Shown in pieces: positions 19,261-23,519 of a stretch of 64,000 bases of DNA; position 1 is the first letter of the stretch; every line of letters starts with the position of its first letter. The stretch is from contig CAVUXE010000058.1 in assembly GCA_963745235.1 (NCBI GenBank), positions 32,001-96,000 on the forward strand, given 5' to 3'. A program made the translations under genes and the position numbers. The DNA is from an uncultured Spirochaetota bacterium (lineage in GTDB: Bacteria; Spirochaetota; Spirochaetia; SZUA-6; Fen-1364). Under the pieces are notes generated by a model. The model saw only the letters and a program-made list of their open reading frames with translations. It was not told the DNA's origin and did not search any database.

Positions 19261-19875
19261 ATGCTGGTTCCTGCCGAGGTCTGGACAGTGGCGAAAGCCG
19301 AGCAGGGCAACGCGGTGCTTGTCAGACCCCTCGGTCTGGACGTCGCAGTGCCCATTTTCATAGCGCCCCTGGAGGCGCAGTCCATTCTCATCGGGCTCGG
19401 GAGCGTGAAGATGCCCCGGCCGCTCACGCATGATCTTTTCATCACGGTCCTCGAGAGCCTGGAGTCCTCCGTCAACCGCGTGGAGATTACGGCGCTCAAG
19501 GAAGGCACCTACTACGCGAAGCTGATCCTTGATTCCTCGGGGTCCGAGATCGCCGTGGATGCGCGTCCATCCGACTGCCTTGCCCTGGCGGTCCGCGTCA
19601 AGTGCCCCATCTACATCGATGAGGCCGTGGTGGACGAGGCCGGCATCTCCGTGAAGATGGTTGAAGAGAAGAACAGGGAGCTCAAGCAGGAACAGGGAGC
19701 CGGGGAAACGGCAACGGAAGAAAGCGAGACGCCCACGGTCACCGAGGTGGCACCCCTGGTGCAGGAAGACGAAATGTCGAGCCTCAGAAAGCTCCTTCAG
19801 GCGGCTATTGATGAGGAAAACTACGAGGAAGCGGCTCGCCTGAGAGACAAGATCAGGGAAATAGAAAGCGCCTGA
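19261..19875 (+). CDS. Bifunctional nuclease family protein (DUF151) with C-terminal UVR motif
   Basis: PIFIAPLEA, RPLTHDL, DARPSDCLALA and C-terminal AIDEENYEEAARLRD. Confidence 0.92.
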   Translation: MLVPAEVWTVAKAEQGNAVLVRPLGLDVAVPIFIAPLEAQSILIGLGSVKMPRPLTHDLFITVLESLESSVNRVEITALKEGTYYAKLILDSSGSEIAVDARPSDCLALAVRVKCPIYIDEAVVDEAGISVKMVEEKNRELKQEQGAGETATEESETPTVTEVAPLVQEDEMSSLRKLLQAAIDEENYEEAARLRDKIREIESA

Positions 19876-21412
19876 GTAGCCTGTCGGACTGAGTCGGCAG
19901 CCGAAGCGGCCACCGAGCGTCCACGGCGGGGCATTTTGCGCCCGGTCGGCCCCGTTGTCCGTCGCGAGGCTGTCGGCCTCCCGCGAAAGCCTGTTGGGTG
20001 ATCTTTCCGAGCCCACTTCCTTTCCCTTCAGGCAGTCGAGAGGCTCCAGAGCCGTCTCATGTTGTACGCCAGGCAGACCAGATCCCACTCGATGCGCACC
20101 TTGGCCATGCCGCGAAGCAGAAACTGCCGCAGCCCCATCGCGCTCTTGATGATGCCGAATACCGGCTCGACGCTGGAGGCTCGCCTGCCATAGATGCGCT
20201 TGCCCTCATCAGATGTCACCTTCTCGCGCATGGCGATCAGTCGAGGATCAACGACCTTCTTGGCAGGATGGTTCTTGGGCGGCCGGTAGTCGTAGCGGCG
20301 ATAGTTGTTGTCCTCACTGCTGATCGCCACGTACAGATCCACCTTCTGCTGAACGCGCTCAATTGCCTCGGCGTTCACATAGCCCCCGTCGGCCAGCATC
20401 CCCTGCACGGGTCCGACCGACTCCACCACGTTCTGCAAGGCCACCTCCAGCTGATTCGCGTCGCTGGGGGTGGCAATGACATCGGTGGCCAGGATCAACT
20501 GGCTGCCCTCGGCGTCCACAACCGCCTGCGCGTTGTAGGCCTGTTCGTAGCTGTCGCGGCGGCTCTTGCGCATCAGGGCGCTATCGGGATCGGTGAGGTT
20601 GATCTGCTGAGAGTCCTTCGGCTGCTTCACAGGACTCTCACCCCCCGACTTCGGTCCTTGCGGTTTGTCCTTGTCGTCTTGCTTCTCACCCTCGTCCTTC
20701 GCCCGCTTCTCCAGTTCCTCGCGAGCCCAGCGCATCTTTTCCAAAAGCGCTTCGCGTCGTGCTATCTCCGGGGGGAGCTTCTGTCCATCCTCAGCAGGCT
20801 CCGCATCTGCTTTTGCCGCGCGTTGCAACAACTCCTCTATGTCCTTGCGCAATTGCTCTTCCAGTTGCCCTGCCCGATCATAGCGCACACTCTTGTGCTT
20901 GGAGGCGTTCGCTTTGATGTGCGTCCCGTCCACGCTGACCATCCCCACCTTCACCAGACCCATTTGCCGCCCCAGGCGTAGAACCTCAACAAATGCTTCC
21001 TTGACGACCTTCCCGTTCTCTCGACGAAACTCGCAGATGGTGTCGTGATCCGGATGGGTGTCCCCGCTCAGGTAGCGAACCGCTACGTCACGATAGGTCG
21101 CCCGCTCGATTCTCCGCGAGGCGAAGACTCCGTTGCAGTAGCAATAGATCAGCAACGCCAGCATCATTCGGGGTGGATATTGCTTGCTGCCGCTGCCGCG
21201 GGTGTTCACCGACATGGTGGAGAGCCTCATCGAATCCACCGCGCCGATCACGAAGTGCACCAAATCGTTCTCGGGGACCCACTGACGAAGATCCACAGGA
21301 AGGAGCATCGGCGTGTCCCGATCCACGTTCACCAGCCGCTCTGCCATGCCTTCAATTTACCATGCCCCGCGGATTTCCGGAATACCCGACGACGAAAGTC
21401 CGACAGGCTACT
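19875..21412 (-). mobile_element. IS1182-family insertion sequence
   Basis: Perfect 16-bp terminal inverted repeat AGTAGCCTGTCGGACT (19875-19890) / AGTCCGACAGGCTACT (21397-21412) around a DDE transposase. No clean target duplication is visible. Confidence 0.9.
20028..21347 (-). CDS. IS1182-family transposase
   Basis: DUF772-type N-terminus (YPPRMML, SRRIE, PDHDTICEFR), VDGTHIKANASK, YNAQ, LADGGY and VEPVFGIIK. Confidence 0.93.
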   Translation of the reverse strand: MAERLVNVDRDTPMLLPVDLRQWVPENDLVHFVIGAVDSMRLSTMSVNTRGSGSKQYPPRMMLALLIYCYCNGVFASRRIERATYRDVAVRYLSGDTHPDHDTICEFRRENGKVVKEAFVEVLRLGRQMGLVKVGMVSVDGTHIKANASKHKSVRYDRAGQLEEQLRKDIEELLQRAAKADAEPAEDGQKLPPEIARREALLEKMRWAREELEKRAKDEGEKQDDKDKPQGPKSGGESPVKQPKDSQQINLTDPDSALMRKSRRDSYEQAYNAQAVVDAEGSQLILATDVIATPSDANQLEVALQNVVESVGPVQGMLADGGYVNAEAIERVQQKVDLYVAISSEDNNYRRYDYRPPKNHPAKKVVDPRLIAMREKVTSDEGKRIYGRRASSVEPVFGIIKSAMGLRQFLLRGMAKVRIEWDLVCLAYNMRRLWSLSTA

Positions 21413-21425
21413 ACTATGATGCGCG

Positions 21426-22523
21426 TCAAGCCGCCTCTTGGTTTCCCCCTTTCTTGATTTCCTTCGCATAGTCTCCGAGCTTCTTCTCATAGAGCCTCGG
21501 ATCAATCCAGCGGTATAACTCGCGAGACAAGAGCATTCGGCGCATTATGGAGAAGGTCTTGCGCAGTAGAGCGATCCGCGCGCGCCCGTACCCTTTACGG
21601 TCAACCAACTCGCGGTAGAAACGAGCCAGCACAGGAGAGGAGTCCACGAGGTGGATCACCGTCTGGGTGAAGAGGCTGCGGGTTAGTCCTCGGCTACGTC
21701 GGTTGATCGCCCCGTTGTGTGTTACCCCGCCACTGGAGCGCACTGTAGGTACCACCCCCAAGTAGGAGTGTAGCCGCCGGGCGCTCCTGAACCTTGTGAT
21801 GTCTCCCACCTCCGAGAGGAAGGCCAAGGCCAACAAAGGGGTTACTCCGCGGATGCTGATGAGCAGCTTCACTTCGGCCTCAAACGGCCTGCCTGCCTGG
21901 TAGATCGCGCGTTTGAGATTTTCCTTCTGGTCCTGCAAGCTTGCCAGAAGTGCCAGGCTGGTTTTGATGCAGACACGACTTGCCGCGGAGAGCTCTACCG
22001 TCTTCAGAAGCTCCTCTGTTCCAGTAGGATTGTCCACAAGACGGTTTCCCAGTACTCGATCCCTTATCCCGTTGTCTAATAGAACCCCGTGAATCTCGTT
22101 CTTCAATTGACGGATCTGTTTGTTCAACAACTCGTACAGTCCGAAGTACCTTCTCAACTCCCGCACCACTGGTCCCGGCTGCCACACCTCCGGCAGCTTC
22201 ATCTCTCCGCTGCGTGAGGCCAGCCACAACGCCAAGGACAGATTGGCCGCGTCCCGTTTGTCCGTCTTTTGCCAAGAGTCGCGGATGATACGGAAGCGGT
22301 AGGCGTCGATCACCGCGCAGCTCGCTCCCTGGTTCTGAATCTTCTCCGCCCAGTACAGCGCTCCGGCAGAGGCTTCCAGCACAACCGCGTCCTCGTTGCC
22401 CAGGCTCGCGACGTAGCCCTTGATATCCACCTGGGTCCGCACAAAACTCTCCTCCGTTCCTCCCTCGTCCCGTACGGAAATCGTTGCGTACTTCTTGTGC
22501 AGATCCACCCCGTAATACCTCAT
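21426..22523 (-). CDS. IS110-family DEDD recombinase/transposase
   Basis: GVDLH, VLEAS and KTDKRDA (DEDD tetrad), SIRGV, YLGVVP..RSSG. Purine-rich RBS before ATG 22523. Confidence 0.94.
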   Translation of the reverse strand: MRYYGVDLHKKYATISVRDEGGTEESFVRTQVDIKGYVASLGNEDAVVLEASAGALYWAEKIQNQGASCAVIDAYRFRIIRDSWQKTDKRDAANLSLALWLASRSGEMKLPEVWQPGPVVRELRRYFGLYELLNKQIRQLKNEIHGVLLDNGIRDRVLGNRLVDNPTGTEELLKTVELSAASRVCIKTSLALLASLQDQKENLKRAIYQAGRPFEAEVKLLISIRGVTPLLALAFLSEVGDITRFRSARRLHSYLGVVPTVRSSGGVTHNGAINRRSRGLTRSLFTQTVIHLVDSSPVLARFYRELVDRKGYGRARIALLRKTFSIMRRMLLSRELYRWIDPRLYEKKLGDYAKEIKKGGNQEAA

Positions 22524-22800
22524 GTCCCCCTCCCTTCTCGAAACCCTCAGGGTCCAAACGAGGAGACTTCCTGGAAGGCGCTGGTAACTCCATCCTACTA
22601 TCCAGCATCGCCAGTGGCGTGCTATTTTGTCGGTACGGAACGGCGGTGGGTGGCCTGCCAAACTCTTAGTCGTGGTCGCCGCTCGGGTGCCACAAGCCTA
22701 TAGAAGGCCATCTACCGTCCTCCTCTTGGGTCCCGGGTCTTCGAGGAATTCAGTATACAGCCACCAACCACTTGATCATCAACGCCTTCCGGGAACTGCA
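22524..22800 (-). ncRNA. Candidate bridge/seek-type RNA of the IS110 element
   Basis: Lies downstream of the junction-formed promoter. Long-range stem GGAAGGCGUUG/CAGCGCCUUCC plus internal stems (UGGCCU/AGGCCA, AGUGG/CCACU). Boundaries are inferred. Confidence 0.55.
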
Positions 22801-22819
22801 AGGCGCATCATAACAACTC

Positions 22820-23519
22820 CTAGTCCGGGCCGATGGTCGTTCCGACGTACGCTCCGCCGGTCAGTATCCGCTCGAGGTTCGCCAGGTCCCTTCCTTCCGC
22901 AAAGACCACGGGGATGCGGGATTCAGCGGCGGCGCGGGCCGCCGTGGCGTCAAACGGCGTGTTTTTCCCCGGCGTCCAATCCCCGCCGACGATCCCCAGC
23001 ATCTCTTTCCACGTCAGTCGCTCCAGCGCGCGGGCGTCCGGATCGAGTACGGGGGTCCTCGGAATAGACCATCGCGATGTTCGACAGGTTGACGACGAGC
23101 GAGGCGGAGAACCTCTGGGCAAGGACCACGGCGTCGTTGTCCGTCGAAAAACCCGGCTTCCAGCCCGCTGCAACCATCACCCTGCCGGCAAACACGGCGG
23201 CCGCCGTGGGGTCCGTGACCAGATTCTCCACGCACCAGGGGCGCAGGATGCGGCGCACCAGCTCGCCGTTCAGCCGTGTGGCGGCTATCCCCACCCAGTC
23301 CTGGTCCTCGCTGCTCGCGGCCGGAGCCACTTCACGCAGCGCTGCCTGGTATTCGCGCGCGAGGCTTCCTCCGCCGCAGACGATGATCAGCTTGCGGTCC
23401 TGGTCCCCCGCAAGGTAGCTTTCCACCAGGCGCGCAAAGCCGTCGAGGTAGGAGATGTCCAGCCCGTGCGGCGCGATGATGGATCCGCCCAGGGAAATGA
23501 CGGTGACATTCGGCATCAT
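22820..23519 (-). CDS. pyrH: UMP kinase (archaeal/spirochaete type), frameshift in the G5 run at 23051-23055
   Basis: VISLGGSII, IVCGGGSLAREYQ, DWVGIAATRLN, GWKPGFSTD and WTPGKNTPFD...YVGTTIG. Confidence 0.92.

What the first reader, a model, noticed from the sequence alone, without database searches (positions are those of the whole stretch)
22524..22800. Structured ~280-nt non-coding region: candidate bridge RNA enclosed by a long-range stem
Seen, as minus-strand RNA: GGAAGGCGUUG (22790-22780) pairs with CAGCGCCUUCC (22583-22573), closing a ~200-nt domain. Inside are AGUGG/CCACU, GCUGU/AUAGC, UUCCUC/GAGGAG, and UGGCCU/AGGCCA around a large internal loop capped by GUGG/CCAC. Short matches to the insertion site occur: AGGCU and ACUA flank the capping hairpin (site AGGCTACTA), AUAGG matches the donor junction, and UAGUAG occurs at 22600-22595. 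These matches are short and could be chance; I could not assign target or donor guides with confidence. Established: IS110 non-coding ends encode bispecific guide RNAs. Inference: this may be a programmable recombinase RNA with a different, single-multiloop architecture.
Basis: partly seen in the sequence, partly recalled or inferred. Interest (0 to 1): 0.75.

Follow-up and report, generated by a model that had tools for sequence, protein, structure and literature searches.

The report
Bridge RNA gene of an insertion sequence
The structured non-coding stretch is the guide ("bridge" or "seek") RNA gene of an IS110-family mobile element, whose loops spell out the element's own ends and its insertion site; it is a well-supported new example of a mechanism described in 2024, not a new kind of system.

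Summary
The 300-nt left end (window 22816-22524, minus strand) of a 1.4-kb IS110-family element encodes a bridge/seek RNA. Inside are two guide-bearing regions. The target module (22705-22663) has a 5' segment complementary to the right flank and a 3' segment identical in sense to the left flank. Both track the flanks of each homologue (0 of 10,000 shuffles reach the observed match). The donor module (22631-22595) matches the element's own ends, and the 2-nt core (AG here; AT, AC, GG elsewhere) covaries. Circularisation would create a TTGACG-17-TATGAT promoter. In each module the guide that pairs with the top strand comes first. The donor guides lie in a multiloop, and the ends carry 10-bp subterminal inverted repeats. 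All three are published IS1111-group traits, but here the RNA lies upstream of the transposase, a rare arrangement already noted in print. The window copy sits in the terminal repeat of an IS1182-family element. No transcript was shown. I rate it a new member of a known kind, of moderate-low interest.

The parts
21413..22816 (-). Body of the IS110-family element (right-donor end TTGTTATG... to left-donor end ...CATCATAGT), 1404 bp, flanked by one AG core on each side
   Evidence: A second copy in the same genome (G000:C71) differs inside the element by one substitution and a 3-nt indel. A DNA contig of another sample covers exactly 21411-22823. Ends come from junction alignment of 66 loci and coordinates.
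22817..22818 (-). Core dinucleotide AG at the left junction
   Evidence: The core read in the left-target guide equals the left-junction core in 46 of 46 distinct rows. Cores AG, AT, AC and GG occur in different lineages.
21411..21412 (-). Core dinucleotide AG at the right junction
   Evidence: The core read in the left-donor guide equals the right-junction core in 31 of 38 distinct rows. Coordinates.
22819..22826 (-). Left target flank (LT) GGACTAGG. It includes the stop codon of the upstream amino-acid-kinase-family gene.
   Evidence: It matches the left-target guide GACUAAG at 6 of 7 positions (read). The same LT precedes an empty site at G000:C71:2860-2878.
22803..22812 (-). Left subterminal inverted repeat TATGATGCGC. 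Its first six bases (22812-22807) are the -10 hexamer of the junction promoter.
   Evidence: It is the reverse complement of GCGCATCATA at 21424-21415. ATGAT is invariant in 56 aligned left ends.
22570..22793 (-). Bridge/seek RNA domain (224 nt) closed by helix P1
   Evidence: The whole structure has 90.0-90.7% of cells paired, against 31-54% when partners are slid by 1-3 columns. It has 23-25 pairs with changes on both sides, against 12.1-12.4 in shuffles (0 of 500 reach the observed value).
22775..22793 (-).
22570..22589 (-).
22759..22771 (-). Segment (a): 5' strand of helix P3a, pairing with 22656-22642
   Evidence: P3a has 14 pairs, 91.6% of cells paired and 6 pairs with changes on both sides. 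It is in the unconstrained MFE of 15 of 17 sampled homologues.
22720..22748 (-). P2 hairpin (UUCCUC ... GAGGAG)
   Evidence: 6 pairs, 86.3% of cells paired, 2 pairs with changes on both sides.
22706..22717 (-). Segment (b) CGGUAGAUGGCC: nearly invariant, and an alternative 5' partner (P3b) of 22656-22642
   Evidence: P3b has 12 pairs, 88.8% of cells paired and 4 pairs with changes on both sides. It carries an A.C mismatch in 47 of 55 rows at one pair and in 19 of 55 at another. RNAalifold chose P3b.
22694..22705 (-). Target module, 5' side: right-target guide (RTG) UUCUAUAGGCUU, complementary to the top strand of core plus right flank
   Evidence: Its reverse complement matched the right flank (8 nt) at a mean of 5.30 positions, against 2.96 in shuffles (sd 0.18). 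0 of 10,000 shuffles reach this; n = 44 distinct pairs.
22672..22693 (-). P4 hairpin capping the target module (GUGGC...GACCAC)
   Evidence: 6 pairs, 98.1% of cells paired, 2 pairs with changes on both sides.
22663..22671 (-). Target module, 3' side: left-target guide (LTG) GACUAAG plus core AG, in the same sense as the left flank and so pairing with its bottom strand
   Evidence: LTG matched the left flank (7 nt) at a mean of 4.74 positions, against 2.23 in shuffles (sd 0.17). 0 of 10,000 shuffles reach this; n = 46 distinct pairs.
22642..22656 (-). 3' strand shared by P3a and P3b (AGGCCACCCACCGCC)
22624..22631 (-). Donor module, 5' side: right-donor guide (RDG) GACAAAAU. GACAA pairs with the first bases of the left end (TTGTT, with one rG.dT).
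   Evidence: RDG against the right-donor end (5 nt) scored 4.79, against 4.36 in shuffles (sd 0.07). 0 of 10,000 shuffles reach this; n = 24 distinct pairs. The variants TTTTT, TTGAT, TTGGT and TTGTC are each matched by guide variants. In the window copy the positions that would pair with the core are mismatched.
22604..22623 (-). P6 hairpin between the two donor guides
   Evidence: 6 pairs, 98.8% of cells paired, 5 pairs with changes on both sides.
22595..22603 (-).
   Evidence: The 5-nt guide equals the last 5 nt of the right end in 20 of 21 distinct pairs. One lineage changes both together (ATAGC). The core covaries.
22526..22534 (-). Shine-Dalgarno-like GGGAGGGGG ahead of the transposase start
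   Evidence: Read from the sequence. GAGG is conserved in the alignment.
21426..22523 (-). Transposase / bridge recombinase gene (365 aa)
   Evidence: NCBIfam NF033542 'IS110 family RNA-guided transposase' scores 180.6 bits against a cut-off of 140. Pfam PF02371 gives E = 9.5e-18. PF01548 scores 24.9 bits, below its cut-off of 29. D7, E50, D88, D91, S264 and G265 are invariant in 17 homologues at 52-88% identity.
21424..21429 (-). TTGACG, the -35 hexamer of the junction promoter, overlapping the transposase stop codon
   Evidence: On a circle joined through one core the spacer to TATGAT is 17 nt. No sigma-70-like site was found in the linear sequence 21350-23000.
21415..21424 (-). Right subterminal inverted repeat GCGCATCATA
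21397..21410 (-). Right target flank (RT) TAGCCTGTCGGACT, which is the tip of the terminal inverted repeat of the neighbouring IS1182-family element
   Evidence: The same repeat lies at the other end of that element (about 19875-19890) and at both ends of its second copy on C71. CCTGTCGG matches the right-target guide at 5 of 8 positions if the TAG is skipped (read).
19875..21412 (-). IS1182-family element whose terminal repeat is the insertion site (context, not part of the RNA)
   Evidence: NCBIfam NF033551 scores 338.8 bits against a cut-off of 270. The genome holds two copies. A contig of another sample joins the sequences on either side of both elements.

Best explanation
The region is the gene for a bispecific guide RNA (bridge RNA, also called seekRNA) of an IS110-family element with IS1111-type logic.

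Proposed mechanism:
1. The element excises as a circle. Joining right end, AG core and left end creates a TTGACG-17 nt-TATGAT promoter.
2. Transcription from about 22800 gives an RNA that folds into a domain closed by helix P1.
3. [quoted passage not shown] 4. [quoted passage not shown] 5. The DEDD/serine recombinase encoded downstream then exchanges strands at the AG core. This inserts the element without duplication at sites resembling GACTAAG-AG-CCTATAG.

In this genome the sites used are the tips of the terminal repeats of an IS1182-family element.

Shown here: the conserved structure, the guide-to-flank and guide-to-end covariation, the core covariation, the promoter halves and the copies. 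Inferred by analogy with IS621, ISEc11 and ISEc21: the circle, the transcript, RNA-protein binding and the catalysis.
For: Recombinase. NF033542 'IS110 family RNA-guided transposase' scores 180.6 bits against a cut-off of 140. D7, E50, D88, D91 and S264 are invariant in 17 homologues.

Conservation of the non-coding end. blastn matched the window's left end in 58 of 61 other distinct upstream regions, at 69-100% identity, down to homologues with about 60% protein identity.

Structure. With P3b: 49 pairs, 90.0% of cells paired (31-47% when slid), 23 pairs with changes on both sides against 12.1 +/- 1.9 in shuffles, 0 of 500 reaching the observed value. With P3a: 51 pairs, 90.7% paired, 25 such pairs.

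Target guides. RTG against the right flank: 5.30 of 8 against 2.96, n = 44. LTG against the left flank: 4.74 of 7 against 2.23, n = 46. In both, 0 of 10,000 shuffles reach the observed value. The result holds with one row per distinct guide (n = 31 and 28).

Core and donor guides. LTG core equals the left-junction core in 46 of 46 rows. LDG core equals the right-junction core in 31 of 38. LTG core equals LDG core in 46 of 47. LDG equals the right end in 20 of 21. RDG against the left end: 4.79 of 5 against 4.36, 0 of 10,000.

Promoter. The halves are 17 nt apart only on a circle, and the linear sequence holds none.

Mobility. Two near-identical copies occur at different sites in the genome, with a 98% copy at a third site in another assembly. 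In that copy (L010) the right flank CCTATAG is the exact complement of the guide.

Strand rules and guide order agree with published systems (passages and sections read).
Against: No transcript was shown. The only RNA-library data are two assembled contigs, which cannot show start, end or strand and may derive from DNA. One covers 22400-22632 and the other 21410-21556. Neither covers the target module.

No Rfam family matched at E <= 1. Folding energy alone is not exceptional (z = -1.82).

The window copy fits its own guides imperfectly. The left flank matches at 6 of 7 positions. The right flank matches at 5 of 8 only if an extra TAG is skipped. The RDG positions opposite the core are mismatched.

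The LDG core differs from the right-junction core in 7 of 38 rows. The donor guides vary little, so their covariation rests on few independent changes. Sequences are related, so shuffle controls overstate independence.
Confidence: 0.88

Rival explanations
1. Only the target module is a guide, acting as a short seekRNA of about 74 nt (22717-22645 closed by P3b). The 'donor module' would be scaffold, and the element ends would be recognised by the protein through the 10-bp subterminal inverted repeats and through target-like flanks. Siddiquee et al. emphasised this for the IS1111 family.
For: The donor guides are nearly invariant: LDG is AUAGU in 20 of 21 distinct pairs. The RDG effect is small (4.79 against 4.36). 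In the window copy the RDG does not pair with the core. IS1111-type elements have long subterminal repeats, and shorter seekRNAs of 74-96 nt predominate in purified complexes (sections 9 and 12 of PMC11187229). P3b would close a module of that size.
Against: The core dinucleotide changes together in LDG, LTG and the junctions across four core types (46 of 47 and 46 of 46 rows). One lineage changes the right end and LDG together (ATAGC). Left-end variants TTTTT, TTGAT, TTGGT and TTGTC are matched by RDG variants. P1, which encloses both modules, has 10 pairs with changes on both sides. That argues the long form is under selection.
Confidence: 0.07
2. The region is only a structured 5' leader that controls transposase translation or stability, with no guide function. 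The flank matches would arise because related copies share insertion sites.
For: The RNA lies directly upstream of the transposase start. A CUCCUC stretch could pair with the Shine-Dalgarno-like GGGAGG (read). Related sequences inflate shuffle statistics.
Against: The guide segments are the hypervariable parts of an otherwise conserved RNA, and each tracks its own flank. The signal survives reduction to one row per distinct guide (RTG 5.32 against 2.91, n = 31; LTG 4.86 against 2.17, n = 28). Near-identical RNAs sit beside similar flanks at unrelated loci in different assemblies.
Confidence: 0.03
3. The RNA gene is genuine for the family, but the window copy is a decaying or trans-dependent copy that no longer directs its own movement.
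For: The window copy has an extra TAG between core and right flank compared with copy B. Its guides fit its flanks imperfectly. No site within 2 mismatches of the guide-predicted 15-nt target exists in this 85.7%-complete genome.
Against: Copies A and B differ inside the element by one substitution and the 3-nt indel, which implies recent movement. The reading frame is intact and the catalytic residues are present. The TAG is probably part of this IS1182 copy's own terminal repeat, since the same TAG precedes the repeat at that element's other end.
Confidence: 0.15

Closest known systems
IS621 bridge RNA (IS110 group; Durrant et al. 2024, PMC11208160; Hiraizumi et al. 2024, PMC11208158)
   Same: It is encoded in the left non-coding end, upstream of the recombinase. 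The promoter is split between right and left ends. It has separate target and donor modules. Left guides have the sense of the top strand and pair with the bottom strand, and right guides pair with the top strand. A 2-nt core is read by the guides.
   Different: In IS621 the left guide is 5' of the right guide in both loops (LTG 50-58, RTG 77-80, LDG 123-130, RDG 157-165). Here the order is reversed. IS621 has two simple internal loops in series. Here a long-range stem closes the whole RNA and the donor guides lie in a multiloop. Subterminal repeats are 10 bp here, against 2-3 bp. The core is AG, not CT. The proteins are barely alignable (phmmer E = 0.14 to 8wt6).
IS1111-family seekRNAs (ISEc11, ISPa11, ISKpn4; Siddiquee et al. 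2024, PMC11187229) and predicted IS1111-group bridge RNAs (Durrant et al. 2024, section 'Diverse IS110s encode bridge RNAs')
   Same: The segment complementary to the top strand lies 5' of the one complementary to the bottom strand. The subterminal inverted repeats fall in the 7-17 bp range. Donor-binding nucleotides lie in a multi-loop. Insertion is into a repeat of another mobile element, as in the title of Partridge & Hall 2003 on IS4321/IS5075, which I saw only in a reference list.
   Different: The RNA is upstream of the transposase rather than downstream. The transposase has 365 aa, against 330-350 quoted for the family. Relatedness of the protein to IS1111 transposases was not established. 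The only indication is a tblastn match of 24% identity over 88% of the query to an ISEc11-family gene.
ISMtsp17, and IS with two long non-coding regions (ISHvo10, ISAcp5), named as exceptions by Siddiquee et al. 2024
   Same: ISMtsp17 is described as a member of the tight IS1111 cluster with its non-coding region upstream. Some relatives of the window element carry long non-coding regions at both ends.
   Different: Only that one sentence about ISMtsp17 was found in the library. No RNA, guides or structure are given there, so likeness beyond the position of the non-coding region cannot be judged.
Bridge-RNA clusters of the 2026 genomic-language-model survey (bioRxiv 10.64898/2026.10.21.760802)
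   Same: That survey clustered intergenic sequences next to PF01548+PF02371 proteins. It reports many covariance models that deviate from IS621 yet covary with target and donor (passages read).
   Different: I could not check whether this family is among its clusters. Its database and supplements were not available here.

Membership tests
IS110-family RNA-guided (DEDD) transposase | Scores above the curated cut-off of the family model | tested here: met
   NF033542 scores 180.6 bits against a cut-off of 140. PF02371 scores 64.8 bits against 21.3.
IS110-family RNA-guided (DEDD) transposase | N-terminal RuvC-like DEDD domain (PF01548) and conserved D, E, D, D plus the serine of the C-terminal domain | tested here: inconclusive
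   PF01548 scores 24.9 bits, below its cut-off of 29. D7, E50, D88, D91 and S264-G265 are invariant in 17 homologues. The motif G256-x2-P259-x4-S264-G265 fits the G--P----SG pattern quoted. Equating these residues with IS621 D11/E60/D102/D105/S241 rests on position, not on a structural alignment.
Bridge RNA / seekRNA | Structured RNA gene in a non-coding end next to the recombinase, conserved among homologues | tested here: met
Bridge RNA / seekRNA | Two segments that match opposite strands of the target on either side of the insertion point and covary with it | tested here: met
   (0 of 10,000 shuffles for both guides); table
Bridge RNA / seekRNA | Two segments that match the element's own ends (donor) | tested here: met
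   LDG equals the right end in 20 of 21 pairs. RDG against the left end scores 4.79 against 4.36, 0 of 10,000. Variation is low, so support is weaker than for the target.
Bridge RNA / seekRNA | Core dinucleotide read by all four guides | tested here: inconclusive
   Met for LTG (46 of 46 rows) and largely for LDG (31 of 38). For RTG it is seen by reading (CU opposite AG, with the register varying by one nucleotide). For RDG the core positions pair in some lineages (for example L041, L011, L067) but not in the window copy.
Bridge RNA / seekRNA | Promoter reconstituted at the junction of right and left ends in the circle | tested here: met
   At sequence level only: TTGACG-17-TATGAT on the joined ends, and none in the linear form. 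Neither the circle nor the transcript start was observed.
Bridge RNA / seekRNA | RNA is made and bound by the recombinase, and reprogramming redirects recombination | not testable with these tools
   Only two RNA-library contigs lie on the element. They cannot show a transcript.
IS1111 group | Subterminal inverted repeats of 7-17 bp | tested here: met
   TATGATGCGC (22812-22803) and GCGCATCATA (21424-21415), 10 bp. Definition.
IS1111 group | Long non-coding region and guide RNA downstream of the transposase gene | tested here: not met
   The RNA is in the 293-nt left end. The right end is 13 nt beyond the stop codon. Published exceptions exist (ISMtsp17).
IS1111 group | The segment matching the top strand lies 5' of the one matching the bottom strand | tested here: met
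   True in both modules. Rule.
IS1111 group | Transposase related over its full length to that of IS1111 | not tested
   No reference set of ISfinder proteins was available. The only indications are a tblastn match of 24% identity over 88% of the query to an ISEc11-family gene (E = 8e-7) and all plasmid hits below 60% identity.
IS110 group (IS621-like) | Left guide 5' of right guide in two simple internal loops; subterminal repeats absent or 2-3 bp | tested here: not met
   The order is reversed, the donor guides lie in a multiloop, and the repeats are 10 bp.
Any Rfam family | Match to a curated covariance model | tested here: not met
   0 matches at E <= 1 in 21000-23200.

The most novel reading that the evidence does not exclude
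Two upstream segments are each complementary to the same 3' strand (22656-22642): (a) at 22771-22759 and (b) at 22717-22706. Both pairings carry changes on both sides across the family: P3a at 6 of 14 pairs, P3b at 4 of 12. The RNA may therefore be a conserved two-state switch. P3b would close a compact seekRNA-like target module. The usually more stable P3a would open it into a three-way junction and free the nearly invariant segment (b). Such a switch could gate target binding or time the choice between excision and insertion. No bridge RNA I read about is described this way.
Probability: 0.15. Interest if true: 0.6.

Novelty: new member of a known kind. Interest (0 to 1): 0.35.

Why it matters
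This adds a fully dissected natural bridge RNA from a recombinase lineage far from every characterised one. No plasmid-borne relative reaches 30% identity in the listed hits, and E-values against the solved IS621 and ISCro4 proteins are 0.14 or worse.

It combines IS1111-type logic (guide order, multiloop donor site, long subterminal repeats) with the upstream position typical of the IS110 group. That bears on the published idea that the RNA gene moved between the two ends of the element during evolution.

The guides, core, donor and natural target are now defined to the base. The system can therefore be tested directly in a two-plasmid assay, and the 66 homologues give a ready-made natural reprogramming series.

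It does not change the picture of how such elements work, and large surveys have already catalogued much bridge-RNA diversity.

Tried and rejected
- Rfam scan of 21000-23200 at E <= 1 found nothing.
- Folding energy of the single sequence was not distinctive.
They conflict with P3a and P6, which covary. One lineage (L070) does show a change compatible with GCUGU/AUAGC, but L026 and L037, with the same 3' change, do not (read).
- I considered pairing segment (b) (CGGUA) with UACCG just 5' of the RDG. I dropped it because the most distant group (GGGA against UACC) does not keep it (read).
- I tested a handshake-like match between the 3 nt after the LDG core and the first 3 nt of the right flank. 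It was weak: 0.97 against 0.76, with 206 of 10,000 shuffles reaching it.
- RNA evidence: two metatranscriptome runs each gave one contig on the element. This does not show transcription, and the uncovered parts say nothing either way.
- The guide-predicted target was not found in the genome within 2 mismatches.
- I did not place the transposase on a tree among IS1111-group and IS110-group references, because no named reference set was to hand.
- I did not build a covariance model. A 224-position model seemed likely to exceed the time forecast, and I did not try. Structure counts therefore rest on a MAFFT alignment.
- The roughly 250-nt structured insert in the right end of some relatives was aligned but not explained.
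- Supplements are closed. [quoted passage not shown] - Papers: of PMC11208160, PMC11208158 and 10.64898/2026.10.21.760802 I saw passages only. Of PMC11187229 I saw the abstract and sections 6, 9 and 12. All others I saw as search listings only.
Full report
**What is there.** On the minus strand the window holds a 365-aa gene (22523-21426). It scores 180.6 bits on NCBIfam NF033542, 'IS110 family RNA-guided transposase', against a cut-off of 140. It hits Pfam PF02371 (E = 9.5e-18) and, below its cut-off, PF01548 (24.9 bits against 29). D7, E50, D88, D91, S264 and G265 are invariant in 17 homologues at 52-88% identity. The finding is the non-coding stretch upstream of this gene. Rfam holds nothing like it (0 matches at E <= 1). 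Its folding energy alone is not exceptional (MFE -112.5 kcal/mol, z = -1.82, 10 of 200 shuffles fold as well).

**Boundaries and copies.** The same genome has a second copy on contig C71 and an 83%-identical copy on C30. Inside the element, the window copy and the C71 copy differ by one substitution (22053) and a 3-nt indel at the right junction. Another assembly holds a 98% copy at an unrelated site (L010). Junction alignment of 66 loci gives the layout:
- left flank
- 2-nt core
- TTGTTATGATGCGC ... GCGCATCATAGT
- 2-nt core
- right flank

In the window this maps as follows:
- left flank GGACTAGG at 22826-22819
- core AG at 22818-22817
- element body at 22816-21413
- core AG at 21412-21411

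The ends carry 10-bp subterminal inverted repeats, TATGATGCGC and GCGCATCATA. A DNA contig from another sample covers exactly 21411-22823.

**Conservation.** I collected 12 loci from genome assemblies and 80 from metagenomes (98 confirmed, the best 80 kept). The window's left end found a blastn match in 58 of 61 other distinct upstream regions, at 69-100% identity. These include homologues whose proteins are only about 60% identical. In the alignment of 56 left ends, a nearly invariant scaffold is interrupted by a few hypervariable segments.

**Structure.**
It has 19 pairs, 10 of them with changes on both sides.
- For the whole structure, 90.0-90.7% of cells pair, against 31-54% when partners are slid by 1-3 columns. 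It has 23-25 pairs with changes on both sides, against about 12 in shuffles (0 of 500 reach the observed value).
- Related sequences inflate such controls, but the slid-partner control keeps relatedness and is equally clear.

**An unresolved point.** The 3' strand AGGCCACCCACCGCC (22656-22642) can pair with segment (a) at 22771-22759 (P3a) or with segment (b) at 22717-22706 (P3b).
- P3a has 14 pairs, 91.6% of cells paired and 6 pairs with changes on both sides.
- P3b has 12 pairs, 88.8% paired and 4 such pairs. It also has an A.C mismatch in 47 of 55 rows at one position and in 19 of 55 at another.
- P3a is in the unconstrained MFE of 15 of 17 sampled homologues, and P3b in 2 of 17. Forcing P3a gives the lower energy in 11 of 17.
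- RNAalifold chose P3b.

I take P3a as the better-supported ground state and leave a switch open.

**Guides.** Published rules for IS621 say that left guides pair with the bottom strand and right guides with the top strand, and that the core is included (passages).
- **Right-target guide.** The 5' variable segment of the target module (22705-22694, UUCUAUAGGCUU) is the reverse complement of core plus right flank. In L010 the flank AG-CCTATAG is matched exactly.
- **Left-target guide.** The 3' variable segment (22671-22663, GACUAAG-AG) has the sense of left flank plus core.
- **Test over all loci.** Over distinct guide-flank pairs, the right guide matches 5.30 of 8 positions against 2.96 in shuffles (n = 44). 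The left guide matches 4.74 of 7 against 2.23 (n = 46). None of 10,000 shuffles reaches either value. With one row per distinct guide the figures are 5.32 against 2.91 (n = 31) and 4.86 against 2.17 (n = 28).
- **Donor guides.** GACAA (22631-22627) pairs with the first bases of the left end. Its variants follow the left-end variants TTTTT, TTGAT, TTGGT and TTGTC (4.79 of 5 against 4.36, 0 of 10,000, n = 24).
- **Core.** The core is AG in 39 distinct rows, AC in 6, GG in 5 and AT in 3. The left-target guide carries the junction's core in 46 of 46 rows. The left-donor guide agrees with the left-target guide in 46 of 47 rows and with the right junction in 31 of 38.

**Results against a clean picture.** In the window copy the right-donor guide does not pair with the core. 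The window's right flank fits its guide at only 5 of 8 positions, and only if an extra TAG is skipped.

**Promoter.** TTGACG (21429-21424, overlapping the stop codon) and TATGAT (22812-22807, inside the left repeat) lie 17 nt apart once the ends are joined through one core. The linear sequence 21350-23000 has no sigma-70-like site on either strand. This matches the junction promoters described for IS621, ISEc11 and ISEc21. I did not observe a circle or a transcript. Two metatranscriptome contigs lie on 22400-22632 and 21410-21556, which proves nothing.

**Target in this genome.** The right flank is the tip of the terminal inverted repeat of an IS1182-family element (NF033551, 338.8 bits against a cut-off of 270) that spans about 19875-21412. 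That element has two copies in the genome, and two of their four ends carry the IS110-family element. One free end, at C71:2860-2878, reads GGACTAGG-AG-CCTGTCGGACT, which is the window's left and right flanks joined. A contig from another sample joins the sequence left of the IS1182 element directly to the sequence right of the IS110-family element. That is the site before either insertion.

**Comparison with what is known.** The mechanism is that of bridge RNAs (Durrant 2024; Hiraizumi 2024) and seekRNAs (Siddiquee 2024). Three traits differ from IS621 and match published IS1111-group traits:
- guide order with the top-strand match first
- subterminal repeats of 7-17 bp

The position of the RNA upstream of the transposase is the IS110-group norm and an exception in the IS1111 group. 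Siddiquee et al. name ISMtsp17 as such an exception, and the library holds nothing more on it. A 2026 preprint reports thousands of IS110-adjacent RNA clusters, many unlike IS621 yet covarying with target and donor. I did not place the protein on a tree. It is remote from solved bridge recombinases (E = 0.015-0.54), and the listed plasmid hits are at 29.8% identity or less.

**Verdict.** The RNA is a new member of a known kind. Its main value is a completely mapped natural system from a distant lineage, plus a possible two-state fold that would need chemical probing.

Noticed in passing
window 19875-21412: An IS1182-family element (439-aa transposase at 21347-20028) with terminal inverted repeats of about 16-17 bp (..AGTAGCCTGTCGGACT). 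The IS110-family element is inserted in its tip. A contig of another sample shows the site without either element, consistent with a very short (about 2-4 bp) duplication around CTAG.
   Followed up: partly
window 23519-22820 (minus strand): The upstream amino-acid-kinase-family gene (PF00696: N-terminal part E = 1e-13, C-terminal part E = 0.002) changes reading frame at about 23070-23050. This is either a pseudogene or an assembly error. Its stop codon lies inside the left target flank of the IS.
   Followed up: partly
L022 1402-1473; L011 2851-2907; L015 2852-2998; L007 1370-1520 (= G000:C30 9397-9547); L061 2605-2633: The right terminus (..TTGACGCGCATCATAGT-AG) is tandemly duplicated two or three times in several relatives, with units of 14 to about 128 nt. 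In L011 the junction of the repeat again lies at an AG. This suggests recombinase-mediated unequal exchange at half-matching sites rather than replication slippage.
   Followed up: no
L011 2596-2870 and the same region of L012, L014, L015, L029, L030, L038, L045, L046, L095: A subset of relatives carries an extra non-coding insert of about 250-330 nt between a degenerate internal copy of the right terminus and the true terminus. It contains a conserved long hairpin (GGTTGTCCAC...GTGGACAACC) with compensatory changes. The window copy lacks it. Its function is unknown, and it recalls IS with two long non-coding regions.
   Followed up: partly
L051, L052 (metagenome loci): The guides and the left junction carry core AT, but the right junction reads AC. 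The right-target guide of these elements also specifies AC. A donor and a target differing in the second core base could reveal where in the core the strands are exchanged.
   Followed up: no
L036 about 950-975, compared with L031: One relative has an extra AGT/TAG at the left junction (TTCAGT-AGT-AG-TTGT). The window copy has an extra TAG at the right junction. In the window this may simply be part of the IS1182 repeat.
   Followed up: partly
G000:C73 3687 (+) and 4590 (-): Two inverted sites about 900 bp apart read ACTTAG-AG-CCTATCCGAAAAC and ATTAAG-AG-CCTATCCGAAAAC. They look like the ends of another small element and lie within 3 mismatches of the target predicted from the window's guides. 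They are possible free targets.
   Followed up: no
window 22570-22524: Between the RNA domain and the start codon, CUCCUC (about 22563-22558) could pair with the Shine-Dalgarno-like GGGAGG (22534-22529), as in the single-sequence MFE. This could mask translation in the long transcript. Both segments are conserved, so there is no covariation to test it.
   Followed up: no
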